From assembly GCA_963675155.1 (NCBI GenBank), contig OY775912.1, positions 296,058 to 360,057 on the forward strand: a DNA stretch of 64,000 bases, in the 5' to 3' direction. Below, piece by piece: positions 4,866 to 36,938 of the stretch. The number at the start of each line of letters is the position of its first letter. Position 1 is the stretch's first letter. This DNA is from Anaerohalosphaeraceae bacterium (GTDB lineage: Bacteria > Planctomycetota > Phycisphaerae > Sedimentisphaerales > Anaerohalosphaeraceae). Below the pieces are notes generated by a model. That model was not told where the DNA came from. It saw only the letters and a list, made by a program, of their open reading frames with translations, and did not search any database. The translations under genes and the position numbers were made by a program.

Positions 4866-5328
4866 CTAGAAGTTCTGCCGCGTGTTGCAAATACGGTCAC
4901 ATCCCCGGGAGCGGTCCATGAGACCGTTTGGCGAGGAGTATTTAACCGTTTACTCTGAAATGAGTTACGTTGAATTCAGCAGAGAAGCAGAATTTTTGAA
5001 ACCCCTGCTAACAAATGGGGAAATCATCTGTTGCTTTTCGAATGACGCTGTAAGTCCTTGTCTTGTCGTTATTAGTCATTTATTTTAAAGTACTTACGGA
5101 ATTCCTTGACAGGCTGGAACCCCGTATCTCGCGGTTCAGTTTTTTCTCTGACAAATCTTCCCATCGGTTTCGGCGGCCTCCTGAACATTTTGATCATCCA
5201 CCCTAGAAAAATCCGATAAAGAGAAAAATCGTGAATTGTTTTGCACAAACTCCATATAAAATGGCTTTTCTATTACAGACGAGGCAATAAGATACACGCA
5301 TCACATTTTTGAACGAGGAATATGTATT

Positions 5329-5853
5329 TTGAACGAGGAACAAAAAAAAGATATCAAGGGGCCAGAATTTGTAAGGTTGCTGACGGCAAACCAAAACAGA
5401 ATCTCTGCCTATATTTCAGGACTTGTTCCTAATTTCAACGATGCGGATGATATCCTTCAGGAAACGACTGCTATGATGTGGGCAAGAGCGGAAGATTTCA
5501 CTTCCGGGACGGATTTTGCTGCCTGGGGAGTTCGGATTGCATATTATAAAATTCTTGATTACCGGAAAAAGAAGCGTCGCGAGGGGAAATTACTCTTTTC
5601 GGATGAAATGTTTAGCCGGATTGCAGAAAAGGCTCCGACCCGTGTTGGCAAAACAAATACTTATATTGAGAAGCTTCGAGAGTGTACCGACAAACTTCAG
5701 TTGCGGGATAAAGATCTTCTCAATTTACGTTACTCAAATGGCCTGAGCGTTAAAAAAATCTCACTTCGCATCAATTACAGTATTCGAACAGTTTATTATG
5801 ATTTGTCTCGTATTCATGGATTATTGTTAAATTGTATAGAGCGTCCTGAATAA
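5329..5853 (+). CDS. ECF-type sigma-70 family RNA polymerase sigma factor
   Basis: Region 2 (DADDILQETTAMMWARAEDF...FAAWGVRIAYYKILDYRKKK) and region 4 HTH (LRYSNGLSVKKISLRINYSIRTVYYDLSRI). TTG start embedded in a 14-bp direct repeat. Stop overlaps the anti-sigma start (ATGA). Confidence 0.85.
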   Translation: MNEEQKKDIKGPEFVRLLTANQNRISAYISGLVPNFNDADDILQETTAMMWARAEDFTSGTDFAAWGVRIAYYKILDYRKKKRREGKLLFSDEMFSRIAEKAPTRVGKTNTYIEKLRECTDKLQLRDKDLLNLRYSNGLSVKKISLRINYSIRTVYYDLSRIHGLLLNCIERPE

Positions 5854-7541
5854 TGAAAAGTTCAATTAAAGAAAAAACTCAGTTTCGCTGTTTACTCATG
5901 AAGTCGCTGGATGGGACTATCTCCAAAGAAGAAACGGCCGTGTTTAATCAACTCGTTTTCGATTTTCCGGATTTAGAGGAGTATTACTTTAAATGTATGG
6001 ATTTACATTCAGCGCTGGATGGTATTCAAACGCTTGCTGAAATGAGTCATTTGGATGTTGAAGTTGAGCAAAAAAACGCGTTTCTGAGTGAGTTGGGTGA
6101 ATATGAAAAGATTGCCCCCACAATGGAAGTTCTCTCTGCTCCGGAAGACAAGGAATGGTTTCCGGTTAAGAAAATAAGCTATGCAGGGTCCGTCCGGAAG
6201 ATTAACAAGTTTTCATTGGTGACTGCCGTTCTTGGCACGGCTGCGTTTATTCTGATGATTCTGTATGTCCGTATCGTCCCTAATGCTCCCTATCAAGTGG
6301 CGACCATTTGTGATTCCATTGACGCGGAGTGGTCTGCGGGCTTGCCGATTAGCTCGGGAACACGCATTTCTTCTGATTCCCGGCCCATTCAATTGACCCG
6401 GGGAATTATGAAATTGCAGACAGATAGTCAGGTTGAGATTACCTTAGAAGCACCGACAGAATTTTATTTCTCGTCAGACTATAACATGGTAATGAATTAC
6501 GGGAAACTGTTCGCACACGTTTCCAGGCAGGGATTGGGTTTTACAGTTGCGACGCCGAATTCGAGAATTACCGATTTAGGGACTGAATTTGGAGTTCTGA
6601 GTCAAATCGACGGAACCACCGAAGTACACATGTTCAAAGGGAAGGCGAACGTATTTGGGGGCGGTAAAAATCAGACGAAAACATCTCAAATTTTAACCGC
6701 CGGTTCGGCGGTAAGTGTGAGTCGGCATAATTCGACGGTACAAGAAATCTCGCTGGATAAAGGGGTTGTCGTTCGAGATATCATTGGTTCGGAAAATAAG
6801 TTGGCCTGGAGGGGGCAGACAACCCTTCGTTTTGCCGACTTGTTACTAGGCGGCAACGGATTTGGAACAGCGTCTTTGCCGAATATTGAATACGATCCTG
6901 CCGCAGGTACGGTGGTTTCAAGTGGTGTGGCTGGATACAGAAGCGGTCCGGGAAAGAGGAAGGCAATTTCACAAAGTCCCTATCTTGACAGTATCTTTGT
7001 CCCCGGCAGCGAGGATGGCGATGTTATTGTTAGCTCGCTTGGCCATAAATTTGGTGAATGTCCTGAAACGAGTGGCTTGTATTTCGCAAATGTTTTATGT
7101 CAAAAAAACTTTCTATTTTTTGATCCGATCCAACAAGTTTTTAAGCAGTCCAGACAGCAATTTGAAGATTCGGGATTTCTTTACCTGCACAGCAACGTCG
7201 GCCTGACGATTGACCTGAATGCGGTTCGACGGGCTGTTCCCGGCCTTTCTGTCTCTTCGTTCTCTGCTTTTGCCGGGATTATCCGTACCTGGAATGATAC
7301 GCCGGATAGTTCAGAGGCAGATGTATGGATTTTAGTGGATGGCCAGGTTCGGTCTTCTCGGAAAGCTCTTCGAGCTGACGAGGGATATGATATTCATATT
7401 GATATCACTGATGAGGATCGTTTCTTAACCTTGATTGTTACGGATGGCGGAAAAACTTATTCGGAGGGCTTCCCCGCCAATCATTATGATACGTGTGGTT
7501 TTGCCGAACCGGTTTTTAATTTGGTATTGCCTTCAAAATAA
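5853..7541 (+). CDS. FecR-family transmembrane anti-sigma factor with a C-terminal beta-sandwich sensor domain
   Basis: Single TM helix (FSLVTAVLGTAAFILMILYV). FecR-like block (GFTVATPNSRITDLGTEFGVLS...EVHMFKGKANVF). C-terminal domain shared with 24733..26466 (DVWILVDGQV...RFLTLIVTDG). Translationally coupled to the sigma factor. Confidence 0.75.
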   Translation: MKSSIKEKTQFRCLLMKSLDGTISKEETAVFNQLVFDFPDLEEYYFKCMDLHSALDGIQTLAEMSHLDVEVEQKNAFLSELGEYEKIAPTMEVLSAPEDKEWFPVKKISYAGSVRKINKFSLVTAVLGTAAFILMILYVRIVPNAPYQVATICDSIDAEWSAGLPISSGTRISSDSRPIQLTRGIMKLQTDSQVEITLEAPTEFYFSSDYNMVMNYGKLFAHVSRQGLGFTVATPNSRITDLGTEFGVLSQIDGTTEVHMFKGKANVFGGGKNQTKTSQILTAGSAVSVSRHNSTVQEISLDKGVVVRDIIGSENKLAWRGQTTLRFADLLLGGNGFGTASLPNIEYDPAAGTVVSSGVAGYRSGPGKRKAISQSPYLDSIFVPGSEDGDVIVSSLGHKFGECPETSGLYFANVLCQKNFLFFDPIQQVFKQSRQQFEDSGFLYLHSNVGLTIDLNAVRRAVPGLSVSSFSAFAGIIRTWNDTPDSSEADVWILVDGQVRSSRKALRADEGYDIHIDITDEDRFLTLIVTDGGKTYSEGFPANHYDTCGFAEPVFNLVLPSK

Positions 7542-29056: not shown

Positions 29057-30649
29057 TTATATATTGTTGATTTCTTTCCATGAAATGCTGAATTTAGCTA
29101 AATATTTCTTTAATCGGTCTGCATCATTGGGCCGGGCCTTTTGTGTTCTGGAGACATTGAAAAGCTGTCGTCCTGCCTCAGATAGACTTTTGGCTTTTGA
29201 ACATACTTTTATGACATGAGCCAGTTGCGGCCTGTCAAATTCGTCAATTTTAGCCAGTCTTTCTTTTCCGAGGAGTTTTTCCAAGAGATCGGTATTGTTA
29301 TCTTGTCTGGCCGATTGCCAGGATTTAAGGAGTCTCTGGATTTCTTCTTCCACAATATCTTCGCAGATTCGGCCTCCGGGGGCCAGTGTGGCCATGCGGG
29401 TAATCGCCCCGATCAGATCACGGAAATTCGATTTCCACATTGCTTGGCCCGACGTACTGAATGACAGGAAGCGTCTTTGAGCTTCTTTATTAAATCTGAC
29501 ATGCGTGCCGGCTTTACTGGCGTATTGATCCAGTTCGTACTGGATATTAGGCTCGATGTCTTCGCGGCGATCCTTCAAACCCGGCAGGTGAAACGTCCAC
29601 AGGTTGATTCTGGCCAGCAGGTCTTCGCGGAATTGCCCGGAATTGATATTGGCCTGTAAATCTCTATTGGTCCCACAGATCAGCTGAAAGTCGCTGCTGA
29701 CCTCTTTGTCAGATCCAACGGGCAGGAATTTCTTTTCTTCGATGGCTCGAAGCAGCATCGATTGCTCCTCAATGCCCAGTTCGCCAACTTCATCGAGGAA
29801 TAGAATACCGCCATCGGCTGTTTTTAAGAGACCCTCTCTGGCCTGTACAGCACCTGTAAACGCTCCTTTTGTATGCCCAAAGAGGGCTGACATCGCTGCG
29901 TCACCCCGAATGGTTGCACAGTTGACCTCTACAAAATCCCCTCTGAGTTTTTTGTGCGTCTTTTTAAGCTCAAAGATTCGTTGGGCTAGCTGGGATTTAC
30001 CGGCTCCGGTAGGTCCCATGAGCAGAATAGGATCTGTTGTCCGGGCTCCAACATGCTCGATCCGTTCAATCAGGGCATTGAAATTCTTATTCTTTGTTTG
30101 GATACCGGATTTTAAAAATGAGATATCGTCACACAACTGCTGCTTGAACCGCATCGCGATTCGGTCATACTTGGACAGGTCTAAATCGATAATTTGATAA
30201 CTGCCCGGTCCCTGATCTGTTTCTCGTTTTGGAGGGCTTGTTTGCAGCAGTCTGCCGGGGAAGTAGCGAGATTCGGTTAACAGGAACTCGCATATCTGAG
30301 AAACGTGTGTCCCTGTTGTGATATGGACTAAATACTCTTCATGGTCAGGGTCAAAGTCATAGTCTTTCGAAAAGTCATGGAGGACGCCGTACACCTCCTG
30401 GAAGTCCCAGGGATTATCCCAGTCAATGACATGAGGGACCACCTTTGTTTCCGGGGAAACAAGACCGATGTCTTTGATCACGCTTTTAGCGATCTTCTCG
30501 AATTTCCGTTGAAAGAGTAATTCAAAACGATCGACCAGCAGTTCTTCGTGTTGGCAGATTGAGACCGTTGGCCGCCAGAAGTTCCAGCGATCCGGTCCTT
30601 GCCCGCGGTCGAGATTAGGCCCCAACAATCCGATGACTACATTCTTCAT
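29057..30649 (-). CDS. rtcR: RtcR: sigma-54-dependent transcriptional activator with N-terminal CARF-like domain
   Basis: AAA+ sigma-54 interaction domain with GAFTGA (HTKGAFTGA), Walker A GPTGAGKS, ILFLDEVGEL. Long N-terminal non-receiver domain typical of RtcR CARF. Divergent from the rtcA/rtcB block. Confidence 0.85.
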   Translation of the reverse strand: MKNVVIGLLGPNLDRGQGPDRWNFWRPTVSICQHEELLVDRFELLFQRKFEKIAKSVIKDIGLVSPETKVVPHVIDWDNPWDFQEVYGVLHDFSKDYDFDPDHEEYLVHITTGTHVSQICEFLLTESRYFPGRLLQTSPPKRETDQGPGSYQIIDLDLSKYDRIAMRFKQQLCDDISFLKSGIQTKNKNFNALIERIEHVGARTTDPILLMGPTGAGKSQLAQRIFELKKTHKKLRGDFVEVNCATIRGDAAMSALFGHTKGAFTGAVQAREGLLKTADGGILFLDEVGELGIEEQSMLLRAIEEKKFLPVGSDKEVSSDFQLICGTNRDLQANINSGQFREDLLARINLWTFHLPGLKDRREDIEPNIQYELDQYASKAGTHVRFNKEAQRRFLSFSTSGQAMWKSNFRDLIGAITRMATLAPGGRICEDIVEEEIQRLLKSWQSARQDNNTDLLEKLLGKERLAKIDEFDRPQLAHVIKVCSKAKSLSEAGRQLFNVSRTQKARPNDADRLKKYLAKFSISWKEINNI

Positions 30650-30786: not shown

Positions 30787-30802
30787 CTGGCACGCAGGTT
30801 GT
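30787..30802 (+). promoter_or_regulatory. sigma-54 (-24/-12)-type promoter candidate, oriented toward the tRNA-like element / SPFH / tRNA array / rtcAB
   Basis: TGGCACG-CAGG-TTGTA versus consensus TGGCACG-N4-TTGCW; the -12 element is GT instead of GC. Lies ~140 bp from the rtcR start, on the opposite strand. Confidence 0.45.
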
Positions 30803-31000
30803 ACATAGTAGATCAAGTAATTAACGCTCTTATGAAAATTAAAGATGAAGTTTCCGCCGGGCCAGCGGCATACCAGTGACAGCCATGCTGTTTCATTGCG
30901 TATGTACCGTGAGTGGGTTCTAACGAAGGTGGAACTATTCGAGCGGCGAGAATTGGAAAATGCGACCAATGTCAATTCTTTCGATTCCCGCATCGGATCC

Positions 31001-31085
31001 CAATGGTTAGCTCAGAGGGTAGAGCATCGGGCCGTTAACCCGAAGTCGTGGGTTCGATTCCCACACCGACCGCCGCGAGAGCGGC
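31001..31085 (+). ncRNA. tRNA-like element with canonical D-arm, anticodon arm (GTT, Asn-type) and T-arm but no good 7-bp acceptor stem, followed by a GNRA-capped hairpin
   Basis: TAGCTCAGAGGGTAGAGC D-arm. TCGGG-CCGTTAA-CCCGA anticodon arm. GTGGG-TTCGATT-CCCAC T-arm. The 5' strand CAATGGT pairs only 4/7 with the 3' strand ACCGACC. Then GCCGC-GAGA-GCGGC. Confidence 0.4.
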
Positions 31086-31448
31086 TCAAAGAAGGGCTCG
31101 AAGGAAACATTTGGTCTATCTGGCAGTTGACAGGTTTTTCTGACTCACCTCGTTGGCCTGTCAACACCATTTGTAAACGCTCTGCAGTATGCGGATACCG
31201 CTTACTTCTGGCCAAGAGCAAAGACGTCGATGACGAACAAGCAATGACGGATTTCGCTGGTAATAGGAAATCTGAAATTGCGACCTTCCGAATCGCCTCT
31301 TACCTTGTTCAAAGTGAACTTAAGCATGCTCCGCGTGAAAGATGGGGCAATAGTCAAATGTTTCCTGAAAGCCTCTTATGACAAATGCCCGGCGATAAAT
31401 GAAAGAATAAATACAAGGTGAGAAAATAGAATAAAAAGGAGAATTAAA

Positions 31449-32552
31449 ATGAGTATTAAAACGATCAAAATCCATTCGTATGAAAAGGGATTCCACTTCC
31501 GTAACGGTGAGCTGATTGGTTTGCTGGACGAAGGTCGCCACTGGTTTCTGAAACCTGTTGCGAAGGACCAGGTTTATGTATCAAACCTGCGAGATCCTTG
31601 GATTCGCCATAACGACCTTGACTTGATTGTTAAGTCCGGCGTTTTGGAAGGCAAGGCTCAGGTTCTGGACCTTCAGGACTTCCAACGCGGGTTGGTCTGG
31701 GTGGATGGTCGTTTTGAAGCGATTGTGTCCGGCGGAATCTATGCGATCTGGACGACGCATCGTGCCGTGAAAGTGGAAATCATTGATGCACGGGACGTTC
31801 GGTTTAACCACCGTGACATCAGCGTTATCCTGAAATCCTCAGGTGCCAAAGAGCTTTTGGATGAGAACACCGTCGCTGAAGATCACGTGGGTGTTTACTT
31901 CCAGAATGGCCGCTATGTGGAAACGCTGGATGCCGGGCGCTATGTGTTCTGGAAAGGCATTGAGAAAGTACATGTTTTTCAGGTGGATCTGTCCGAGTTG
32001 TCTTTGGATATCTCCGGCCAGGAAATCATGACGGCGGATAAAGTGACTTTGCGTATGAATGCGGTGGTTGCTTACACCGTTCAGGATGCTGAAAAGGCCG
32101 TTCGTTCGACAACGGATGTCAAGCAGTCGCTGTACCGCGAAACTCAGTTGGCCTTGCGAGCGATTGTTGGGTCACGTCAGCTGGATGAATTGCTGGCTGA
32201 TAAGGATGCTCTGGCTGATGAACTACAAGGTCAGATTGCAGAGCGAGCCGAGTCATTCGGTTTGAAGCTGACAGCTCTGGGAATTCGAGATGTGATCCTG
32301 CCCGGTGAAATGAAGAATCTGTTGAATAAGGTGACTGAGGCTAAAAAGGCGGCAGAAGCGAACCTGATTGCTCGCAGAGAAGAGACCGCCGCGATGCGTT
32401 CTCAGGCAAACACAGCCAAGTTGCTGGAAAACAACCCTGTATTGATGCGGCTGCGTGAACTGGAAGTACTGGAAAACATCTCAACCAATTCCAAGTTGAA
32501 TGTGGTGCTGGGTGAAAAAGGGCTGGCCGATAGAGTGGTCAACCTGTTGTAG
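31449..32552 (+). CDS. SPFH/band-7 (stomatin/flotillin-like) domain protein
   Basis: SPFH-like core (LRMNAVVAYTVQDAEKAVRSTTDVKQSLYRETQLALRAIVGSRQLDELLADKDALADEL...LKLTALGIRDVILPGEM) and coiled-coil tail. RBS aaaaaggag. Confidence 0.7.
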   Translation: MSIKTIKIHSYEKGFHFRNGELIGLLDEGRHWFLKPVAKDQVYVSNLRDPWIRHNDLDLIVKSGVLEGKAQVLDLQDFQRGLVWVDGRFEAIVSGGIYAIWTTHRAVKVEIIDARDVRFNHRDISVILKSSGAKELLDENTVAEDHVGVYFQNGRYVETLDAGRYVFWKGIEKVHVFQVDLSELSLDISGQEIMTADKVTLRMNAVVAYTVQDAEKAVRSTTDVKQSLYRETQLALRAIVGSRQLDELLADKDALADELQGQIAERAESFGLKLTALGIRDVILPGEMKNLLNKVTEAKKAAEANLIARREETAAMRSQANTAKLLENNPVLMRLRELEVLENISTNSKLNVVLGEKGLADRVVNLL

Positions 32553-32618
32553 GCGGCAGAAGAAGGGGCAGGCCGGAAGTTTCACCGGTCTGTCCCGCGC
32601 AAAAAAGTAAAGGTTGAA

Positions 32619-32692
32619 TGCTCCGTGGCCCAACTGGAAGAGGCAGCGGGTTTTGAACCCGTTCGTTGCAGGTTCGATTCCTGCCGGAGCTG
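32619..32692 (+). tRNA. tRNA-Gln (anticodon TTG)
   Basis: Manual fold: acceptor TGCTCCG/CGGAGCT (U1.U72 mismatch). Anticodon arm GCGGG-TTTTGAA-CCCGT. T-arm GCAGG-TTCGATT-CCTGC. Confidence 0.65.
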
Positions 32693-32697
32693 AATGA

Positions 32698-32772
32698 CTG
32701 GATGTAGGGCAGCCTGGGTAGCCTACTCGCCTTGGAAGCAAGACGTCGTTGGTTCGAATCCAACCATCCAGA
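32698..32772 (+). tRNA. tRNA-Pro (anticodon TGG)
   Basis: Acceptor CTGGATG/CATCCAG perfect. D-arm GGGCAGCCTGGGTAGCCT. Anticodon loop CTTGGAA. T-arm GTTGG-TTCGAAT-CCAAC. Confidence 0.7.
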
Positions 32773-32774
32773 CT

Positions 32775-32847
32775 GTGACCGTAGCTTAATTGGTAAAGCA
32801 CCAGATTGTGATTCTGGGGAGTACGGGTTCGAGTCCCGCCGGTCACC
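32775..32847 (+). tRNA. tRNA-His (anticodon GTG); no encoded G-1
   Basis: Acceptor GTGACCG/CGGTCAC, discriminator C. Anticodon arm CCAGA-TTGTGAT-TCTGG. T-arm ACGGG-TTCGAGT-CCCGC. The nucleotide at -1 is T. Confidence 0.65.
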
Positions 32848-32867
32848 CTTTGAAAAGAGAATGTTGA

Positions 32868-32938
32868 GCGTTGACGGTATAATGGCAACATACGGGCTTG
32901 CCAAGTCTGTGATGGGAGTTCGAATCTCCCTCGACGCA
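32868..32938 (+). tRNA. tRNA-Gly (anticodon GCC)
   Basis: Acceptor GCGTTGA/TCGACGC. Anticodon loop TTGCCAA; the anticodon stem has two G-U pairs. T-arm GGGAG-TTCGAAT-CTCCC. Confidence 0.6.
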
Positions 32939-32941
32939 ATC

Positions 32942-33012
32942 GGCCTCGTCGTCTAGTGGCAGGACACCAGATTTTCGATCTGTGAACGTGAGTTTGATTC
33001 TCACCGAGGCTA
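32942..33012 (+). tRNA. tRNA-Glu (anticodon TTC)
   Basis: D-arm TCGTCTAGTGGCAGGAC typical of tRNA-Glu. Anticodon loop TTTTCGA. T-arm GTGAG-TTTGATT-CTCAC. Acceptor GGCCTCG/CGAGGCT (G1.U72). Confidence 0.6.
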
Positions 33013-33018
33013 TTAATC

Positions 33019-33092
33019 GGCTCTGTAGCCCAATTGGCAGAGGCGGCGGACTTAGAATCCGCTCAGTGTAGGTTCGACTCCTACCGGGGCTA
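33019..33092 (+). tRNA. atypical tRNA: Gln-like body with anticodon TAG (would read CUA Leu codons) and a short class-I variable loop
   Basis: D-arm GCCCAATTGGCAGAGGC and T-arm GTAGG-TTCGACT-CCTAC closely resemble the tRNA-Gln at 32619. Anticodon arm GCGGA-CTTAGAA-TCCGC. 5-nt variable loop, unlike class-II tRNA-Leu. Acceptor has three G-U pairs. Confidence 0.45.
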
Positions 33093-33097
33093 GTAAA

Positions 33098-33169
33098 GGA
33101 ACGGTAGCTGAGATGGTTTAGCGAAAGCCTGAAAAGGTTCAGACGTTGGTTCGAACCCATCCCGTTCCA
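33098..33169 (+). tRNA. tRNA-Phe-like (anticodon GAA) with weak anticodon stem and one T-stem mismatch; possibly a pseudo-tRNA
   Basis: Acceptor GGAACGG/CCGTTCC perfect. Loop CTGAAAA. The anticodon stem AAAGC/GGTTC has only 3 Watson-Crick pairs. Confidence 0.45.
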
Positions 33170-33254
33170 CTTAATGGAAATATAATTTGAATAACCTAAT
33201 TAAGATGGATACAATCTCATAGACAACAATAAAGGAGTTTAAAGGAATACAGCA

Positions 33255-34274
33255 ATGATTACGATTGATGGATCATTTGGAGAAGGTGGCGGACAAATTC
33301 TTCGCAGCAGCGTGGCATTGTCGCTGATTACCGGGAAACCATTTCAAATCGAGAATATTCGAGCCGGACGTAAAAAGCCCGGTTTGATGCGGCAGCACTT
33401 AACCGCAGTTAATGCGGCCGTTGAAGTGGGTGCCGCTGATGTGAGCGGTAATGCGATTGGATCGCAGAGCTTGACCTTCGCACCGAAAGCAATTAATGCG
33501 GGTACTTACAAGTTTGCGGTTGGGACTGCAGGCAGCACAACGCTTGTGCTGCAAACAATTCTGCCAGCTTTGCTGATTGCTGATAAACCCTCTGAGATTA
33601 CATTGGAAGGTGGAACACACAATCCGTTTGCTCCGCCATTCAGCTTCCTGGAAAAGGTGTTCGTTCCTGTTCTGAATAAAATGGGACCTGAGATCAGCCT
33701 GGACCTTCAACGCCCGGGTTTTTATCCTGCCGGTGGTGGATGCTTTACGGTCAAGATTCAACCTAAAGCGAAGTTGGACAGAATTGACATCATCGAGCGA
33801 GGTGAGATTGTCAGCCGATCTGCTAAGGCCTATGTGGCTTATCTGTCGGAGAAAATCGCCAGCCGGGAACTGAGAGTGATACGGAACAAGCTTTCGTGGG
33901 ACGAAAAGGACACGGAGATTATCAAAGTACGGGATTCAAATGGTCCGGGTAATATCGTGACGGCAGAGATTCAAAGTGAGAATATTACTGAGCTATTTAC
34001 TGGTTTTGGAATGAAGGGTTTGCCTGCGGGTAAAGTGCCGCTGGGGATGGTCGATGAAGCTCGGGAGTACTTGGCCGCAGGGGTTCCTGTGGCAAGACAC
34101 CTGGCCGATCAGTTGATGATTCCGATGGCCATGGCTGGCGGTGGAACGTTTAGAACGCTGCCGTTGACGCTGCATTCGACGACGAATATCGAGATTCTGA
34201 AAAAGTTCTTGGATGTTCAGGTTGAAGTCACCAAACTGGAAAAAGATTTTTATGAAATCAATATCATCGCGTGA
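33255..34274 (+). CDS. rtcA: RNA 3'-terminal phosphate cyclase RtcA
   Basis: N-terminus ITIDGSFGEGGGQILRSSVALSLITGKPFQIENIRAGR, typical of RtcA. ~339 aa. RBS aaaggag. Confidence 0.9.
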   Translation: MITIDGSFGEGGGQILRSSVALSLITGKPFQIENIRAGRKKPGLMRQHLTAVNAAVEVGAADVSGNAIGSQSLTFAPKAINAGTYKFAVGTAGSTTLVLQTILPALLIADKPSEITLEGGTHNPFAPPFSFLEKVFVPVLNKMGPEISLDLQRPGFYPAGGGCFTVKIQPKAKLDRIDIIERGEIVSRSAKAYVAYLSEKIASRELRVIRNKLSWDEKDTEIIKVRDSNGPGNIVTAEIQSENITELFTGFGMKGLPAGKVPLGMVDEAREYLAAGVPVARHLADQLMIPMAMAGGGTFRTLPLTLHSTTNIEILKKFLDVQVEVTKLEKDFYEINIIA

Positions 34275-35704
34275 TGATTGACGATGGAGATAATGAAATG
34301 AAAACACGACAATTAGCGAATCTTGGAATCCCTCGCGGGGAAACCATGAAGATGACTCAGGACGCGATTAAGCAATGGCTTCAATCGTATGACGGCTATC
34401 TGAATAATGCGGCGATCTGCCAGAAGATCAATGACCTGGCCAAGAATCCATCTGAATATCTGGAAGATGAGCACTTTGGTCAAATTGCTAAAATACTGAA
34501 TGAAAGCAAGGAGGCACGAGCGACTTATGTCGATCGCCCAGAGCCGGCTTACTACCAGCGGTGGGGTTCGGATCTGGAAGATAAGGCGATTGAGCAGATG
34601 GAAAATGCGTGCAAACTGCCGATTTCCATTTGTGGTGCCTTGATGCCGGATGCTCATGTGGGTTATGGCTTGCCGATCGGCGGCGTTCTGGCAACTCAAG
34701 ATGCGGTTATCCCATACGCCGTTGGGATGGACATTGCCTGCCGTATGAAAATGACGGTGTTGGATTTGCCGGTTAATGCGTTGACGGGACAAGCGGATCG
34801 TTTGAAAAATGCTCTTGAGACTGAAACGCGTTTTGGTGTTGGGGCATCGTTCAAAAAATACCGTGAACATGACGTGATGGATGAAGACTGGTCGTTTAGC
34901 CCGATTGTTAATCGATTTAAGGACAAAGCCTGGAGTCAGCTTGGAACCAGCGGAAGCGGAAACCATTTTGCCGAATTTGGAACATTGATGCTGGATCAGG
35001 ATGATCTTGGGCTTAAGGCCGGGACTTATCTAGCCTTGCTGAGTCATAGTGGAAGCCGGGGGATTGGAAACGAAATCGCTACGTACTTCAGCAAGCTGGC
35101 AGTCCAGAAGCATCCGGAATTGCCAAAAGAGCTGATGCATCTGTCATGGTTGGATACCGATAGTGCCGAGGGCCAGGAATACTGGCAGGCGATGGAACTG
35201 ATGGGACGCTATGCGGCGGCCAATCATAAGCTGATCCATCGGCATATTGCCAAAAACCTGAACGTTAAGGTGCTTTTGGATGTGGAAAACCACCATAACT
35301 TTGCCTGGAAAGAAGTGCATGACGGGCAGGAAGTAATTGTTCACCGTAAGGGTGCGACGCCTGCCGATGACGGTGCGCTTGGAATTATTCCCGGATCAAT
35401 GGGGACATCCGGCTATGTGGTTCGCGGAAAAGGTAAGCCCGAATCGCTAAACTCTGCTTCTCATGGAGCAGGCCGGAAGATGAGCCGTAAGAAAGCCAAA
35501 GAGACATTTACCTGGCATGATGCCAAGAAATTTCTCAAGGATCGCGGTGTTCAGCTGATCTCTGCAGGACTGGATGAGGTCCCAATGGCGTATAAAGATA
35601 TCGAGGAAGTGATGGCTGCTCAGAATGATCTGGTTCAGCCAATCGCTCGCTTCGATCCAAAAATCGTAAAAATGGCCCCAGCCGGAGAAAGACCGGAGGA
35701 TTAA
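34271..35704 (+). CDS. rtcB: RNA-splicing ligase RtcB (3'-phosphate/5'-hydroxyl RNA ligase); the called ORF has an N-terminal extension
   Basis: RtcB blocks (MPDAHVGYGLPIGGV, HNFAWKEVHDGQEVIVHRKGATPA, IIPGSMGTSGYVVRG, SASHGAGR). Start overlaps the rtcA stop (ATGA). Confidence 0.9.
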   Translation: MMIDDGDNEMKTRQLANLGIPRGETMKMTQDAIKQWLQSYDGYLNNAAICQKINDLAKNPSEYLEDEHFGQIAKILNESKEARATYVDRPEPAYYQRWGSDLEDKAIEQMENACKLPISICGALMPDAHVGYGLPIGGVLATQDAVIPYAVGMDIACRMKMTVLDLPVNALTGQADRLKNALETETRFGVGASFKKYREHDVMDEDWSFSPIVNRFKDKAWSQLGTSGSGNHFAEFGTLMLDQDDLGLKAGTYLALLSHSGSRGIGNEIATYFSKLAVQKHPELPKELMHLSWLDTDSAEGQEYWQAMELMGRYAAANHKLIHRHIAKNLNVKVLLDVENHHNFAWKEVHDGQEVIVHRKGATPADDGALGIIPGSMGTSGYVVRGKGKPESLNSASHGAGRKMSRKKAKETFTWHDAKKFLKDRGVQLISAGLDEVPMAYKDIEEVMAAQNDLVQPIARFDPKIVKMAPAGERPED

Positions 35705-35706
35705 CA

Positions 35707-36279
35707 ATGTGTCATTTTCTAACAGCTGTATTATCAGCAGACGCTGATATTGAAAATTGTAGTTTAATTGCAGAGAAATTCCAGCGAATTTTTGAACCTG
35801 TTTCAAATCAACACGTTCAAAAACAGCTGGAACCTAAGATGAAATACTATTGCATGACAAAGGGTAATTGTGATTGCGGCACAATATGGGGCAAGGGGAA
35901 CGGATCTGGAGATATCAAGAAGAAAATGAATCGTAAACTTAAAAAGCTTCGAAATAAAGGATGGTCTGAAGCTAAAATAAAACGATTTATAGAAAGCAAA
36001 AATCAGGCTTCTCAAGGTGATCAAGCAAGTCTCAAGAAACAACATGTAGATTGTGAAACGTTAGCACAGCAATGGATATCATTTGTTTCGGAAATCATTG
36101 ACCAAGGTTTATCAGACTATATGGGGATTCTTCTGCATTGGTACTCCGGAAATCTTGAAAAGGAAAAAGTTGATATCCAGCAAATAGAGAAAATTACGTT
36201 GAGTGAGCTCACCCCAACCTTTATATGGAAAGCCAAAGAAGACGTGCTGTATATCTTTAAGAAAAATAGGGGTGTATAG
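35707..36279 (+). CDS. hypothetical Cys- and Lys-rich protein (unknown family), translationally coupled between rtcB and prfH
   Basis: ATG 3 nt after the rtcB stop. Stop TAG overlaps the GTG start of the next gene (tagtg). CMTKGNCDCG cluster and basic stretch KKKMNRKLKKLRNKGW. Locally lower GC than the neighbours. Confidence 0.5.
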   Translation: MCHFLTAVLSADADIENCSLIAEKFQRIFEPVSNQHVQKQLEPKMKYYCMTKGNCDCGTIWGKGNGSGDIKKKMNRKLKKLRNKGWSEAKIKRFIESKNQASQGDQASLKKQHVDCETLAQQWISFVSEIIDQGLSDYMGILLHWYSGNLEKEKVDIQQIEKITLSELTPTFIWKAKEDVLYIFKKNRGV

Positions 36280-36938
36280 TGACAAATTGGTTACAAGTTA
36301 CCTCAGGGCGTGGACCAGATGAATGCTGTTGGGTTGTGGCCAGGGTTGTCGAGGCAATCACTCAAGATGCGTCGGCAAATGGCTATAACTTAAATGTATT
36401 GGAAGTCGTGCCGGGAAGTAAGCCGGATTTGTTTAAGTCAGCACTGCTTTCTATTGAAGGCGACGGTTTATCTGAATTCTTGTCTCAATGGGAAGGGACG
36501 ATTCAGTGGATTGGAAAAAGTCAATTCCGTCCCAAGCATAAGCGGAAAAACTGGTTTGTGGGTGTCACATCTTATGAAGCTCCTGAAGAAGTTGATTATA
36601 GCTGCAGTGAATTTCGATTTGAAAGCATGCGATCATCCGGTCCCGGCGGTCAGCACGCTAACAAAATCGAATCGGCCGTGCGTGTCACCCATATGCCCAC
36701 GGGAATTAATGCCATCGCACAGGAAGAACGATCCCAGCATATGAATCGAAAATTGGCATTAAGCCGGTTGCATAAAAAACTCCAGCAACAAAAGCAGAGT
36801 ACTGAAATGCAGCTCCAGCAGGAACGATGGGATGAACATAATGCCTTGGAAAGAGGCAACCCCATCCGAGTGTATGAAGGTCTCAAATTCAAGCTAAAAA
36901 GAATAGACAAAAATAAAGAGTTAAGGATTATTCGATGA
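36279..36938 (+). CDS. prfH: PrfH-type (RF-H) peptide chain release factor homolog with GGQ motif, lacking the RF domain 1
   Basis: SSGPGGQHANKIESAVRVTH GGQ domain. N-terminal SGRGPDECCWVV...GTIQWIG...RPKHKRKNWF pattern characteristic of the RF-H family. ~219 aa. Encoded immediately after rtcB, as in described rtcB-prfH pairs. Confidence 0.75.
   Translation: MTNWLQVTSGRGPDECCWVVARVVEAITQDASANGYNLNVLEVVPGSKPDLFKSALLSIEGDGLSEFLSQWEGTIQWIGKSQFRPKHKRKNWFVGVTSYEAPEEVDYSCSEFRFESMRSSGPGGQHANKIESAVRVTHMPTGINAIAQEERSQHMNRKLALSRLHKKLQQQKQSTEMQLQQERWDEHNALERGNPIRVYEGLKFKLKRIDKNKELRIIR

What the first reader, a model, noticed from the sequence alone, without database searches (positions are those of the whole stretch)
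32619..33169. Seven-gene tRNA array with atypical members, including a Gln-like tRNA bearing anticodon UAG
The seven tRNAs (Gln-Pro-His-Gly-Glu-X-Phe) are packed within 550 bp between SPFH and rtcA. The sixth (33019..33092) has D- and T-arms nearly identical to the tRNA-Gln(TTG) but anticodon TAG, with a 5-nt class-I variable loop; bacterial tRNA-Leu, the normal reader of CUA, is class II. The seventh has only 3 Watson-Crick pairs in its anticodon stem. tRNA-His lacks an encoded G-1. tRNA-Gln has a U1.U72 mismatch. Irregular tRNA arrays next to an RNA ligase / cyclase / regulator could be substrates, decoys or backup copies for anticodon-nuclease stress, or a mistranslation device (Gln or another identity at CUA codons).
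Basis: seen in the sequence. Interest (0 to 1): 0.65.

Follow-up and report, generated by a model that had tools for sequence, protein, structure and literature searches.

The report
Spare tRNA mini-array inside RNA-repair operon
Seven tightly packed accessory tRNA genes sit inside a damage-inducible RNA-repair operon of a planctomycete, most likely as spare or sacrificial tRNAs; the "odd" UAG tRNA is a short-armed leucine tRNA of an already known kind, not a glutamine tRNA in disguise.

Summary
Seven tRNA genes lie at 32619-33170, 2-20 nt apart, with the stated anticodons and irregularities.

tRNA 6 (UAG) is not Gln-like. It belongs to the type I (short variable loop) tRNA-Leu lineage, matching actinobacterial type I tRNA-Leu at 52 of 58 core positions. 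That type is known to be leucylated in Streptomyces. It recurs in planctomycete tRNA arrays and in one phage. The neighbouring "Gln" tRNA looks like a remoulded copy of that body.

The array lies in one predicted sigma-54/RtcR transcription unit: two tRNA-like elements (one is the predicted "band-7-associated tRNA"), a 280-nt rod-shaped RNA, slipin, the seven tRNAs, rtcA, rtcB, an unknown ORF and prfH.

Close relatives keep the operon but carry 8, 1 or 0 tRNAs at this spot, so the array is accessory. Four compensatory stem changes against the closest relative show selection for folding. The window copies carry extra mismatches.

In other Planctomycetota the same slipin and tRNA-like element end long tRNA arrays of up to about 40 genes that contain an HNH endonuclease.

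Best reading: damage-inducible spare or decoy tRNAs, a compact variant of known "L-arrays" fused to the Rtc repair system.

The parts
29057..30649 (-). rtcR: sigma-54-dependent activator with an RtcR (CARF-type) N-terminal domain, divergent from the operon
   Evidence: Pfam RtcR 4.9e-81 and Sigma54_activat 5.8e-50
30788..30802 (+). Sigma-54 promoter-like element TGGCACGCAGGTTGT (-24 GG / -12 TG)
   Evidence: Only match in the window. It is conserved in the alignment of six relatives. The motif is present in all RtcR-linked loci about 145 nt upstream of the first tRNA-like element, and at that position in none of the loci without RtcR.
30937..30999 (+). Decayed class II tRNA-like element; the anticodon 3' half and the variable arm are deleted
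   Evidence: It aligns to intact 82-90-nt tRNA-like genes in L081, L083, L084 and L001 (Rfam 43.5-44.9 bits in L081 and L001).
31001..31074 (+). Band-7-associated tRNA-like element (b7a-tRNA). Anticodon loop is CCGUUAA (C33, GUU); only 4 acceptor pairs.
   Evidence: Rfam tRNA 53.2 bits, model positions 5-66. A homologous element lies 430-740 nt upstream of the slipin in 57 of 69 loci. This kind of element was predicted in the literature.
31095..31373 (+). Long rod-like structured RNA between the b7a-tRNA and the slipin start. The mechanical ORF 30845-31381 that covers it is spurious.
   Evidence: RNAalifold predicts 86 pairs. 93% of cells are paired, and 29 pairs show changes on both sides against 3-7 in slid controls. 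Gene callers called no gene here in the relatives.
31449..32552 (+). Slipin / SPFH (Band_7) protein, 367 aa
   Evidence: Pfam Band_7 1.5e-31. More than 6000 homologues were found, mostly from Planctomycetota.
32565..32596 (+). Conserved 12-bp hairpin after the slipin stop codon, with no U-tract
   Evidence: Fold energy -28.8 kcal/mol, z-score -2.45. It is conserved in all six relatives. It was not called as a terminator.
32619..32692 (+). tRNA(UUG) 'Gln': U1.U72, G73, type I Leu-like D-arm
   Evidence: 51.2 bits. An ortholog in L081/L082 keeps U1.U72 and G73.
32698..32772 (+). tRNA-Pro(UGG): C1:G72, A73, C29.A41 mismatch
   Evidence: 56.4 bits. The L081 ortholog has C29-G41 and a compensatory change at 5:68.
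32775..32847 (+). tRNA-His(GUG): no encoded G-1 (U at 32774), C73, A49.C65 mismatch
   Evidence: 65.1 bits. There are two compensatory changes in the anticodon stem against L081. G-1 is encoded in 22 of 27 array tRNA-His genes elsewhere.
32868..32938 (+). tRNA-Gly(GCC): C8, A12.C23, A73
   Evidence: 48.7 bits. The L081 ortholog scores 60.6 bits and has U8 and G12-C23.
32942..33012 (+). tRNA-Glu(UUC): U56, G1.U72, A73. Absent from L081.
   Evidence: 57.7 bits. Its closest matches are array tRNA-Glu genes of other loci.
33019..33092 (+). Type I tRNA-Leu(UAG): 5-nt variable loop, A73, A14, A15:U48, D-loop AAUUGGCAG
   Evidence: 56.3 bits. Orthologs occur at the same position in L081, L084 and L002. 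The core is 52/58 identical to actinobacterial type I tRNA-Leu(UAA).
33098..33169 (+). tRNA-Phe(GAA): three stem mismatches, probably decaying
   Evidence: 49.6 bits. Its closest matches are the first tRNA (Phe-GAA) of the long planctomycete arrays, whose anticodon stems are fully paired.
33255..34274 (+). rtcA, RNA 3'-terminal phosphate cyclase
   Evidence: Pfam RTC 1e-82
34271..35704 (+). rtcB, RNA ligase
   Evidence: Pfam RtcB 6.9e-90. NCBIfam RtcB models match but stay below their cut-offs.
35707..36279 (+). ORF of 190 aa with no family match. Present only in the window, between rtcB and prfH.
   Evidence: No significant Pfam or NCBIfam hit. In the relatives rtcB is followed directly by prfH.
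36279..36938 (+). prfH, peptide chain release factor H
   Evidence: TIGR03072 at 257.7 bits against a cut-off of 166.65

Best explanation
The seven genes are an accessory, horizontally shuffled mini-version of the 'long tRNA arrays' (L-arrays). Here the array is inserted into an RtcR/sigma-54-controlled RNA-repair operon.

Proposed sequence of events:
1. tRNAs are cut, for example by anticodon nucleases, toxins or translational stress.
2. RtcR is activated. This is inferred from Salmonella RtcR, whose CARF domain responds to tRNA fragments ending in 2',3'-cyclic phosphate.
3. One transcript is made from the sigma-54 promoter at 30788-30802. It carries the b7a tRNA-like RNA with its rod, the slipin, the seven tRNAs, rtcA, rtcB, orf190 and prfH.
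4. RNase P, RNase Z and the CCA-adding enzyme release the tRNAs. They top up the depleted isoacceptors Gln, Pro, His, Gly, Glu, Leu(UAG) and Phe, or absorb nuclease activity.
5. Meanwhile RtcA and RtcB heal and seal broken RNAs, and PrfH frees stalled ribosomes.

tRNA 6 is a type I tRNA-Leu and reads CUA/CUG as leucine. tRNA 1 is a duplicate of that body whose anticodon (A35 to U) and acceptor end (U1.U72, G73) have shifted towards glutamine identity.

Shown here: the genes, their order, the promoter motif, the absence of a + strand terminator, the presence/absence pattern in relatives, the compensatory changes and the family relationships.

Inferred: co-transcription, induction, processing, charging and physiological benefit.
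For: Operon anatomy
- RtcR, Band_7, RTC, RtcB and RF-1/PrfH are all identified by profile searches.
- The sigma-54 motif is unique in the window and conserved in all RtcR-linked relatives.
- No + strand terminator-like site occurs between 30600 and 37100.
- Only 66 nt separate the slipin stop from tRNA 1, and most of that is a conserved hairpin.

The array is accessory
- Relatives with 80-91% identical slipin keep the RtcR - tRNA-like - slipin - RtcA - RtcB - PrfH order.
- At this spot they hold 8 tRNAs (L081: Gln-Pro-His-Ser-Gly-Leu(UAG)-Arg-Tyr), 1 tRNA (L084: Leu-UAG) or none (L083, L001, L085).

The tRNAs are still under selection to fold
- Across 105 stem pairs compared with L081, 94 are unchanged, 4 show compensatory double changes and 3 show one-sided changes that keep the pair.
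- From 7% stem divergence I expect only about 0.2-0.5 double changes.
- All seven tRNAs keep U33 and a purine at position 37. The b7a-tRNA family does not.

Kinship with L-arrays
- tRNAs 2, 5 and 7 match array tRNAs of other Planctomycetota best.
- In 24 of 45 loci with at least 6 kb of upstream sequence, the same slipin is preceded by 5 or more same-strand tRNAs, up to about 40.
- Those arrays contain an embedded HNH endonuclease, as described for cyanobacterial L-arrays.

Published function of L-arrays
- The Anabaena array is silent until translational stress. Under induction 23 of its 26 tRNAs are aminoacylated, and it is co-regulated with rtcB.
- The TrcR regulon there also contains a slipin.

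Identity of tRNA 6.
Against: - No expression, processing or charging data exist for this organism.
- The window copies carry several defects, some at nearly universal positions: C8 in Gly, U56 in Glu, no G-1 in His, three stem mismatches in Phe, and C.A or A.C mismatches in Pro, His and Gly. They score lower than their L081 orthologs for four of five tRNAs. Part of the array may therefore be decaying.
- Relatives do without the array, so any benefit is conditional.
- The array does not match the codon usage of the operon. CUA makes up 4% of Leu codons both in the operon and in the background genes.
- A sigma-70-like site at 33187-33215 could give rtcA its own promoter.
- E. coli LeuRS cannot charge the Streptomyces type I tRNA-Leu, so charging by this host's LeuRS is unproven.
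- I could not check whether the rest of the genome holds a housekeeping set.
Confidence: 0.55

Rival explanations
1. Bait, decoy or signal amplifier. The array tRNAs are not meant for translation. They are sacrificial substrates that soak up the attacking ribonuclease. Their cleaved halves, ending in 2',3'-cyclic phosphate, feed back on the RtcR CARF domain and keep the operon switched on.
For: - The array sits inside the RtcR unit.
- Salmonella RtcR is reported to be induced by tRNA fragments (abstracts listed: PMC7790460, PMC10159003).
- The L-array authors themselves proposed a 'sponge' role and saw cleavage of array tRNAs.
- Anticodon loops are intact while several body positions needed for efficient charging or folding are degraded (C8, U56, no G-1).
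- The adjacent b7a-tRNA family has a hypervariable anticodon loop, as expected in an arms race with loop-reading nucleases.
Against: - Identity elements track the anticodon when the shared body is reused: G73 with UUG, A73 with UAG, G73 with ACG in L081. That pattern fits selection for correct charging.
- Pro keeps C1:G72/A73, and Gly keeps G1:C72, C2:G71 and G3:C70.
- 23 of 26 Anabaena array tRNAs are charged in vivo.
Confidence: 0.17
2. Decaying cargo. The array is a remnant of a horizontally acquired tRNA cluster that landed in an intergenic spacer and is being lost. It has no present function.
For: - Presence/absence and content vary among close relatives: 8, 7, 1 or 0 genes.
- Three stem pairs are broken in the window but only one in L081, and Rfam scores are lower.
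- Phe has three stem mismatches.
- The L084 copy of Leu(UAG) has C8, a T-stem deletion and only 39.4 bits.
- The second upstream tRNA-like element has already decayed in the window.
Against: - Four compensatory double substitutions occur in 105 pairs, far above the neutral expectation.
- All seven loops keep U33 and R37.
- Gene order and tight spacing are conserved with L081 for Gln-Pro-His.
- A tRNA(UAG) persists at this position in four lineages, including the distant L002.
Confidence: 0.18
3. Housekeeping set. These are simply the genome's only genes for these isoacceptors, and they happen to lie in this operon.
For: No other tRNA genes occur in the 64-kb window. The rest of the genome could not be examined.
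Against: - Relatives with the same operon lack the array at this spot or hold a different set.
- Sole copies would not be expected to have C8, U56, a missing G-1 or a three-pair anticodon stem.
- A sigma-54/RtcR stress promoter is an implausible driver for essential tRNAs.
- L-arrays are supernumerary where they have been studied.
Confidence: 0.04
4. Deliberate mistranslation. A tRNA's body identity and its anticodon disagree. Either Gln is inserted at CUA, or Leu is inserted at CAA/CAG by tRNA 1, which has a type I Leu body and a UUG anticodon.
For: - tRNAs 1 and 6 share a body (56/74 identical) but differ in anticodon.
- Streptomyces LeuRS ignores both the anticodon and A73, so a Leu-type body with UUG could in principle be leucylated.
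- CUA is rare (4% of Leu codons), so errors at that codon would be cheap.
Against: - tRNA 6 has every tested Leu feature and a Leu anticodon, so there is no mismatch.
- tRNA 1 has changed exactly the acceptor-end positions that define Gln identity in E. coli (weak 1:72 pair, G73; from my own knowledge). These changes are conserved in L081.
- No dedicated synthetase is encoded nearby, unlike the known ProX-type systems.
Confidence: 0.06

Closest known systems
[quoted passage not shown] 2021, PMC8421152; TrcR regulon, PMC10272220)
   Same: - Tandem same-strand tRNA genes with very short spacers.
- Patchy presence among close relatives.
- Divergent, partly defective members.
- Functional link with rtcB and, in Anabaena, a slipin in the same regulon.
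- In the related planctomycete loci, an embedded HNH endonuclease.
   Different: - Only 7 genes, against 26-43.
- Physically inside an rtc operon rather than merely co-regulated with one.
- Predicted control by RtcR/sigma-54, not by the TrcR repressor.
- No HNH gene in the window.
RtcR-regulated rtcBA RNA-repair operon (E. coli; Salmonella rsr-yrlBA-rtcBA, PMC7790460)
   Same: - Divergent RtcR with an RtcR/CARF domain and a sigma-54 AAA+ domain.
- A sigma-54 promoter.
- RtcA and RtcB.
- Non-coding tRNA-like RNA encoded between the promoter and the enzymes.
   Different: - No Rsr/Ro60 and no Y RNA (no Rfam hit).
- Instead a slipin, a b7a-tRNA with a rod RNA, seven bona fide tRNA genes and PrfH.
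[quoted passage not shown]
   Same: A Band-7 protein adjacent to RtcB, with a tRNA-like gene directly upstream.
   Different: These features are not mentioned in the one secondary citation I could read; the original paper was not held:
- the tRNA array between the slipin and rtcA;
- the second, class II tRNA-like element;
- the 280-nt rod RNA;
- the hypervariable anticodon of the b7a-tRNA;
- the position of this module at the 3' end of long arrays.
Type I tRNA-Leu of Streptomyces coelicolor, tRNA-Leu(CAA) (PMC6614811)
   Same: - Leu anticodon with a 5-nt variable loop.
- U8:A14 pair and a closely similar D-arm.
- The related actinobacterial type I tRNA(UAA) is 52/58 identical to tRNA 6 in the core.
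   Different: - The anticodon is UAG.
- It lies on an accessory array in a planctomycete.
- The acceptor stem is rich in G.U pairs.
- Charging has not been tested.
RtcB2-PrfH ribosome rescue and repair pair (PMC9304027, PMC9223846)
   Same: A PrfH equivalog (TIGR03072) encoded downstream of an RtcB ligase.
   Different: - RtcB scores below the 'release_rtcB' cut-off (162 bits against 271.8).
- A 190-aa ORF separates the two genes.
- The pair is combined here with RtcA, RtcR, a slipin and tRNAs.
Phage tRNA clusters that replace host tRNAs cut by defence nucleases (own knowledge; e.g. phage T5)
   Same: Compact arrays of supernumerary tRNAs. Phage LP65 even carries three 75-nt tRNA-Leu genes.
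   Different: - The array is chromosomal and sits in a host repair operon.
- No phage genes are adjacent.
- Nucleotide similarity to phage records is only at the level of individual tRNAs, 73-76%.

Membership tests
L-array (long tRNA gene array) | Many tandem same-strand tRNA genes with operon-like spacing (published range up to 43) | tested here: inconclusive
   The spacing fits (2-20 nt). With only 7 genes the array is too short to qualify as 'long'. Related loci have 15-40.
L-array (long tRNA gene array) | Supernumerary to the housekeeping tRNA set | not testable with these tools
   Only 64 kb of the genome is available, and the look-up of the window's own protein failed. Indirect support comes from relatives that lack the array.
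L-array (long tRNA gene array) | Patchy distribution among close relatives / horizontal spread | tested here: met
   Relatives sharing 80-91% slipin identity carry 8, 7, 1 or 0 tRNAs at the same intergenic spot. The operon flanks differ in every relative, with an integrase and AbiE next to it in L083.
L-array (long tRNA gene array) | Linked HNH homing endonuclease and RNA-processing genes | tested here: inconclusive
   RtcB and RtcA are adjacent. There is no HNH gene in the window. HNH genes are embedded in the related planctomycete arrays.
L-array (long tRNA gene array) | Silent normally, induced by translational stress | not testable with these tools
   Suggested only by the position downstream of an RtcR/sigma-54 promoter.
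RtcR-controlled Rtc operon | Activator with an RtcR (CARF) domain and a sigma-54 AAA+ domain | tested here: met
   PF06956 at 4.9e-81 and PF00158 at 5.8e-50.
RtcR-controlled Rtc operon | Sigma-54 (-24/-12) promoter in front of the operon | tested here: met
   TGGCAC-N5-TTGT at 30788-30802. It is unique in the window and conserved in the relatives. This is a motif match only; no transcript data exist.
RtcR-controlled Rtc operon | RtcA cyclase and RtcB ligase | tested here: met
   PF01137 at 1e-82 and PF01139 at 6.9e-90.
Band-7 / b7a-tRNA module | SPFH/Band-7 protein encoded next to RtcB | tested here: met
   PF01145 at 1.5e-31. The protein lies in the same gene string as RtcA and RtcB.
Band-7 / b7a-tRNA module | tRNA-like gene associated with the Band-7 gene | tested here: met
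   RF00005 at 53.2 bits at 31005-31067. The element is found upstream of the slipin in 57 of 69 loci.
Type I tRNA-Leu | Leu anticodon with a short (about 5-nt) variable loop | tested here: met
   Anticodon UAG and variable loop UCAGU.
Type I tRNA-Leu | Sequence kinship with established type I tRNA-Leu | tested here: met
   52/58 core identity to the 75-nt actinobacterial tRNA(UAA), which occurs in Nocardia and on a contig encoding PE/PPE proteins. I did not compare tRNA 6 directly with the S. coelicolor tRNA-Leu(CAA) sequence itself.
Type I tRNA-Leu | U8:A14, elbow pairs G18G19/U55C56, and a variable loop of at least 5 nt (elements used by S. coelicolor LeuRS) | tested here: met
   U8, A14, G18G19, U55C56 and a 5-nt loop are all present (alignment).
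Type I tRNA-Leu | Leucylated by the host LeuRS | not testable with these tools
   This needs biochemistry. E. coli LeuRS fails on the Streptomyces type I tRNA.
tRNA-Gln (as claimed for the body of tRNA 6) | Body closer to tRNA-Gln than to other isotypes | tested here: not met
   - The D-arm/anticodon-stem pattern retrieved 109 tRNAs from metagenomes, all with Leu anticodons and none with Gln.
- Array tRNA-Gln genes of other loci have a different body.
- The core identity of tRNA 6 is 52/58 to type I Leu but 44/58 to tRNA 1.
RtcB2-PrfH module | PrfH release-factor homologue | tested here: met
   TIGR03072 at 257.7 bits, above the 166.65 cut-off.
RtcB2-PrfH module | RtcB of the PrfH-linked subfamily (TIGR03073) | tested here: not met
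   162 bits, below the 271.8 cut-off.
Y RNA / Ro60 (Rsr) module | Rsr/TROVE protein and a Y RNA | tested here: not met
   No TROVE domain was found among the neighbouring genes. No Y RNA family was hit at the gathering threshold or at E up to 1.
Dedicated mistranslation systems (tRNA-ProX / ProRSx type; own knowledge) | An anticodon that conflicts with body identity, plus a dedicated synthetase gene | tested here: not met
   No synthetase was found in the profiled genes across about 15.6-46.9 kb. The body and anticodon of tRNA 6 agree.

The most novel reading that the evidence does not exclude
The operon may be a self-contained 'tRNA damage sensor plus repair kit', in which the encoded RNAs are the sensors.
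- The seven tRNAs, and the b7a tRNA-like RNA with its hypervariable anticodon loop and 280-nt rod, would be baits presented on the slipin scaffold.
- Invading anticodon nucleases would cut them, producing cyclic-phosphate halves that RtcR reads. This would give feed-forward induction.
- The set of anticodons carried by each strain would then record which nucleases that lineage has met.

A sub-case: tRNA 1, with a type I Leu body and a UUG anticodon, has dual Leu/Gln identity and causes regulated Gln-to-Leu miscoding during stress.
Probability: 0.15. Interest if true: 0.8.

Novelty: new variant of a known kind. Interest (0 to 1): 0.5.

Why it matters
Tandem arrays of extra tRNA genes are widespread, and their purpose is still debated. 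The only functional study (in Anabaena) found them co-regulated with rtcB but encoded elsewhere in the genome.

Here a small array is wired directly into an RtcR/sigma-54 repair operon, together with a ligase, a cyclase, a ribosome-rescue factor and the predicted Band-7/tRNA-like module. In other Planctomycetota that same slipin/tRNA-like module ends arrays of 15-40 tRNAs.

This gives a compact, genetically tractable arrangement in which to test two questions:
- Are array tRNAs spares, decoys or signals?
- What do the still uncharacterised Band-7 protein and its RNA do?

It also shows that short-armed (type I) leucine tRNAs, so far studied in Streptomyces, are a regular feature of these mobile tRNA arrays: they also turn up in one phage cluster (LP65). 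That matters for annotation, because such tRNAs can be mistaken for aberrant or recoding tRNAs.

Tried and rejected
1. ORF 30845-31381 (178 aa) as a protein. Rejected.
   - It has no Pfam hit.
   - It overlaps two tRNA-like elements and a covarying RNA rod.
   - No gene was called there in the relatives.
   - Apparent 'protein' similarity among 43 loci appears in all three frames, which indicates nucleotide conservation.
2. Y RNA or another known RNA family in the leader. Nothing was found beyond the tRNA hit.
3. tRNA 6 as a Gln-derived tRNA. Rejected.
4. Array matched to the operon's codon usage, as for phage tRNAs. There is no enrichment.
5. Recent origin from a phage or plasmid. Only single-tRNA-length matches at 73-85% identity were found.
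6. An own promoter for the array. There is no room, because only 66 nt, mostly hairpin, lie upstream.
7. Direct test for housekeeping status. Not possible.
   - The window's own slipin could not be looked up.
8. Burroughs & Aravind 2016 (PMC5062991) and the L-array supplementary tables were not available. What those authors said about tRNA genes near Band-7 could therefore not be checked.
9. The primary-sequence motifs that close the rod RNA are not conserved in distant loci. I did not model whether the rod exists there.
10. orf190 has no family match in Pfam or NCBIfam.


Full report
**1. The observation**

ARAGORN finds exactly seven tRNA genes in the 64-kb window, all on the + strand between 32619 and 33170. 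They are Gln(UUG), Pro(UGG), His(GUG), Gly(GCC), Glu(UUC), Leu(UAG) and Phe(GAA). Rfam's tRNA model finds the same seven at 48.7-65.1 bits, against a gathering score of 29. Spacers are 5, 2, 20, 3, 6 and 5 nt, and none of the genes encodes CCA.

- tRNA 6 has a 5-nt variable loop.
- tRNA 7 has A27.C43 and G30.G40, leaving three Watson-Crick pairs in the anticodon stem, plus a T-stem mismatch.
- The base before tRNA-His is U (32774) although the discriminator is C73.
- tRNA-Gln has U1.U72.

There are further deviations: C8 and A12.C23 in Gly, U56 in Glu, C29.A41 in Pro and A49.C65 in His.

**2. The surroundings**

Profile searches give this gene string:
- RtcR on the minus strand (29057-30649)
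- an SPFH/Band_7 'slipin' (31449-32552)
- the seven tRNAs
- RtcA (33255-34274)
- RtcB (34271-35704)
- an unassigned 190-aa ORF (35707-36279)
- PrfH (36279-36938; TIGR03072 at 257.7 bits against a cut-off of 166.65)

A sigma-54-type element, TGGCACGCAGGTTGT, lies at 30788-30802. It is the only match in the window. No terminator-like site lies on the + strand between 30600 and 37100. A conserved 12-bp hairpin without a U-tract follows the slipin stop codon.

The rest of the window is rich in glycoside hydrolases, ECF sigma/FecR pairs and a LacI-type regulator. The best slipin homologues come from Planctomycetota.

**3. Related loci**

I aligned slipin homologues and fetched 80 genomic loci. I fetched eight more places for the closest proteins. 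I then ran ARAGORN on all of them and tblastn with the window's proteins.

Two architectures appear.

(a) Rtc-linked loci, the window's closest relatives (80-91% slipin identity). The order is RtcR, sigma-54 motif, a class II tRNA-like gene, a class I tRNA-like gene, about 380 nt, slipin, hairpin, [variable tRNA array], RtcA, RtcB, PrfH.
- The sigma-54 motif is present in every one of these loci, about 145 nt before the first tRNA-like element.
- L081 (91%) has eight tRNAs at the array position: Gln-Pro-His-Ser-Gly-Leu(UAG)-Arg-Tyr.
- L084 (87%) has only Leu(UAG).
- L083 (88%), L001 (81%) and L085 (80%) have none.
- The more distant L002 has one Leu(UAG) there.
- L017 carries six tRNAs, including Leu(UAG), after rtcB.
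- The genes flanking the operon differ in every relative. L083 has an integrase and an AbiE pair next to it.

The array is therefore a variable, dispensable insert in a mobile operon. That argues against the housekeeping reading, although I could not scan the rest of this genome.

(b) Loci without Rtc genes, mostly Planctomycetia.
- The slipin is preceded by a tRNA(-like) gene within 800 nt in 56 of 67 loci.
- It is preceded by at least 5, 15 or 25 same-strand tRNAs in 24, 18 and 13 of the 45 loci that have 6 kb of upstream sequence.
- These long arrays have a conserved gene order.
- They contain an embedded 197-aa HNH endonuclease between tRNA-His and tRNA-Trp.
- No conserved gene follows the slipin.

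This is the L-array class described by Santamaria-Gomez et al. 2021, which that paper also lists for Planctomycetes. Key points from that work:
- In cyanobacteria an HNH gene and rtcB are recurrent neighbours.
- The Anabaena array is induced by translation inhibitors.
- Under induction 23 of its 26 tRNAs are aminoacylated.
- The array shares a repressor, TrcR, with rtcB and with a hypothetical-protein/slipin gene pair.

Window tRNAs 2, 5 and 7 find their best matches among these array tRNAs. The seven-gene cluster is best seen as a mini L-array.

**4. What tRNA 6 is**

In the planctomycete arrays the tRNAs with anticodons UAG, CAA, GAG and UAA are almost all 73-79 nt long and have A73. Only Leu(CAG) keeps the long arm (82-85 nt).

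The D-arm of tRNA 6 (GCCCAAUUGGCAGAGGC) recurs with Leu anticodons in L055 (UAG, CAA, UAA), L081, L084 and L002. It recurs with UUG only in the window/L081 clade.

All 109 tRNAs that overlapped the match have Leu anticodons. Of these, 105 are a nearly invariant 75-nt tRNA(UAA) that is usually the only tRNA on its contig. One such contig encodes PE/PPE proteins. Nocardia farcinica holds a copy.

tRNA 6 is identical to this sequence at 52 of 58 core positions (8-65). It matches its neighbour tRNA 1 at only 44 of 58.

Type I tRNA-Leu is documented. S. coelicolor tRNA-Leu(CAA) has a 5-nt variable loop, could not be deleted, and is leucylated by its LeuRS. That enzyme relies on U8:A14, the elbow and the loop length rather than on A73 or the anticodon. 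E. coli LeuRS cannot charge it. Lactobacillus phage LP65 also carries three 75-nt tRNA-Leu genes.

tRNA 6 is a type I tRNA-Leu with a matching anticodon.

tRNA 1, and the Arg(ACG) gene of L081, share this body but have G73, and tRNA 1 also has U1.U72. I read them as duplicates whose anticodon and acceptor end were remoulded. This is an inference from parsimony and from the E. coli GlnRS identity set (own knowledge).

**5. Are the array genes alive?**

For the five tRNAs shared with L081 I compared 105 stem pairs.

| Class of stem pair | Count |
|---|---|
| Unchanged | 94 |
| Compensatory double change | 4 |
| One-sided change, pair kept | 3 |
| Broken in the window | 3 |
| Broken in L081 | 1 |

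The four compensatory changes are His 27:43, His 31:39, Pro 5:68 and Gly 7:66. With 15 differences over 210 stem positions, about 0.5 pairs should change on both sides by chance, and fewer still would stay paired. Folding has therefore been under selection.

All seven tRNAs keep U33 and a purine at position 37. However, the window copies score lower than the L081 orthologs for four of five tRNAs.

| tRNA | Window (bits) | L081 (bits) |
|---|---|---|
| Pro | 56.4 | 63.2 |
| His | 65.1 | 68.5 |
| Gly | 48.7 | 60.6 |
| Leu | 56.3 | 60.6 |
| Gln | 51.2 | 49.4 |

G-1 is encoded in 22 of 27 array tRNA-His genes in other loci, but not in the window or in L081. Phe looks the most degraded. The array is a mixture of constrained and eroding members, as reported for Anabaena, where 3 of 26 genes are pseudogenes.

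**6. The upstream RNAs**

The element at 31001-31074 belongs to a family found upstream of the slipin in 57 of 69 loci. This kind of element is already in the literature as a prediction: the 'band 7-associated tRNA' of Burroughs & Aravind 2016, as cited in bioRxiv 10.1101/312249. I could not obtain the original paper.

Three things stand out.
- The body of this tRNA-like element is highly conserved, but 62 copies carry 32 different anticodon triplets, and 23 of the 62 lack U33. Even the six closest relatives differ: GUU, GCU, GUA, CAG and GUG. This is not a decoding tRNA.
- A class II tRNA-like gene precedes it in the close relatives. In the window it has lost its anticodon and variable arms (30937-30999).
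- The 380 nt between the tRNA-like element and the slipin start fold into a long rod (31095-31373). It has 86 predicted pairs, and 93% of cells are paired. 29 pairs show changes on both sides, against 3-7 in slid controls.

The 178-aa ORF that the ORF listing reports here is therefore spurious. No known RNA family matches this region beyond the tRNA hit.

**7. Mechanism**

My best reading (confidence 0.55) runs as follows. tRNA damage activates RtcR, by analogy with Salmonella (PMC7790460, PMC10159003, as listed). A single sigma-54 transcript then delivers the slipin with its RNA partner, fresh copies of seven isoacceptors, the end-healing and sealing enzymes, and the ribosome-rescue factor PrfH.

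The rival readings, with my confidence in each:
- Bait, sponge or signal amplifier (0.17). This fits the intact loops, the eroded bodies and the hypervariable b7a loop.
- Decaying cargo (0.18).
- Housekeeping set (0.04).
- Deliberate mistranslation (0.06).

Codon usage does not link the array to the operon's own genes. CUA makes up 4% of Leu codons in both the operon and the background.

**8. Novelty**

Every component belongs to a described kind: the Rtc/RtcR operon, the Band-7/b7a-tRNA module, PrfH, L-arrays and type I tRNA-Leu.

Four things did not appear in the literature I could search:
- the physical fusion of a tRNA array inside an RtcR operon;
- the slipin/b7a module as the regular 3' end of planctomycete L-arrays;
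- the rod RNA and the hypervariable b7a anticodon;
- type I tRNA-Leu as a standard feature of these arrays.

I rate this a new variant of a known kind, of moderate interest. The specific headline of the finding, a Gln-like tRNA reading CUA, is not supported.

Noticed in passing
window 31001-31074; homologues in L001-L088, about 430-740 nt upstream of the slipin: The band-7-associated tRNA-like element has a highly conserved body but a hypervariable anticodon loop. 62 copies carry 32 different triplets, and 23 of the 62 lack U33. Even close relatives differ (GUU, GCU, GUA, CAG, GUG) while the stem co-varies.
   Followed up: partly
window 31095-31373: A rod-like structured RNA of about 280 nt lies between the tRNA-like element and the slipin start. 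It has 86 pairs, and 29 show compensatory changes against 3-7 in slid controls. No Rfam family matches. It makes the mechanical ORF 30845-31381 spurious. The same spacer is conserved at nucleotide level in 43 more distant loci, but the rod was not modelled there.
   Followed up: partly
window 30937-30999; L081 7468-7554, L083 7472-7555, L084 4674-4763, L001 7480-7561: A second tRNA-like gene of class II type (82-90 nt, variable anticodon) sits directly upstream of the b7a-tRNA in the close relatives. The window copy has lost its anticodon and variable arms.
   Followed up: partly
L003, L005, L006, L008, L009, L030, L043, L052, L058, L079 and others (positions about 1400-7400): Long arrays of 25-40 tRNAs in Planctomycetota have a conserved gene order and an embedded 197-aa HNH endonuclease between tRNA-His and tRNA-Trp. 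They always end in tRNA-Cys, the b7a-tRNA and the slipin. No conserved gene follows the slipin.
   Followed up: partly
L089-L208 (metagenome contigs); L210 (Nocardia farcinica); L211 (Lactobacillus phage LP65): A nearly invariant 75-nt type I tRNA(UAA) is widespread as a stand-alone gene on high-GC contigs. One of these contigs encodes PE/PPE proteins. Phage LP65 carries three 75-nt tRNA-Leu genes. I did not determine whether it is the sole UUA/UUG reader in those genomes.
   Followed up: partly
window 35707-36279: A 190-aa ORF with no Pfam or NCBIfam match is inserted between rtcB and prfH. The relatives have rtcB followed directly by prfH.
   Followed up: partly
window 32565-32596: A 12-bp GC-rich hairpin lies right after the slipin stop codon. 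It is conserved in all six relatives, lacks a U-tract, and marks the 5' edge of the array insertion site.
   Followed up: partly
window 33187-33215: A sigma-70-like site (TTGAAT-17-TACAAT, 9 of 12) lies in a block conserved between the array and rtcA. It could give rtcA-rtcB-prfH an RtcR-independent promoter.
   Followed up: no
L083 2667-5476; L001 12956-16562: The Rtc/slipin operon sits in a different genomic context in each relative. In L083 it lies next to an integrase and an AbiEi/AbiEii pair. In L001 it lies next to an rRNA operon (Ile-Ala-23S-5S).
   Followed up: no
L081 9732-9806: A tRNA-Arg(ACG) in the sister array shares the type I Leu-like body of window tRNAs 1 and 6. One tRNA body has therefore been reused for three anticodons within this clade.
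   Followed up: partly
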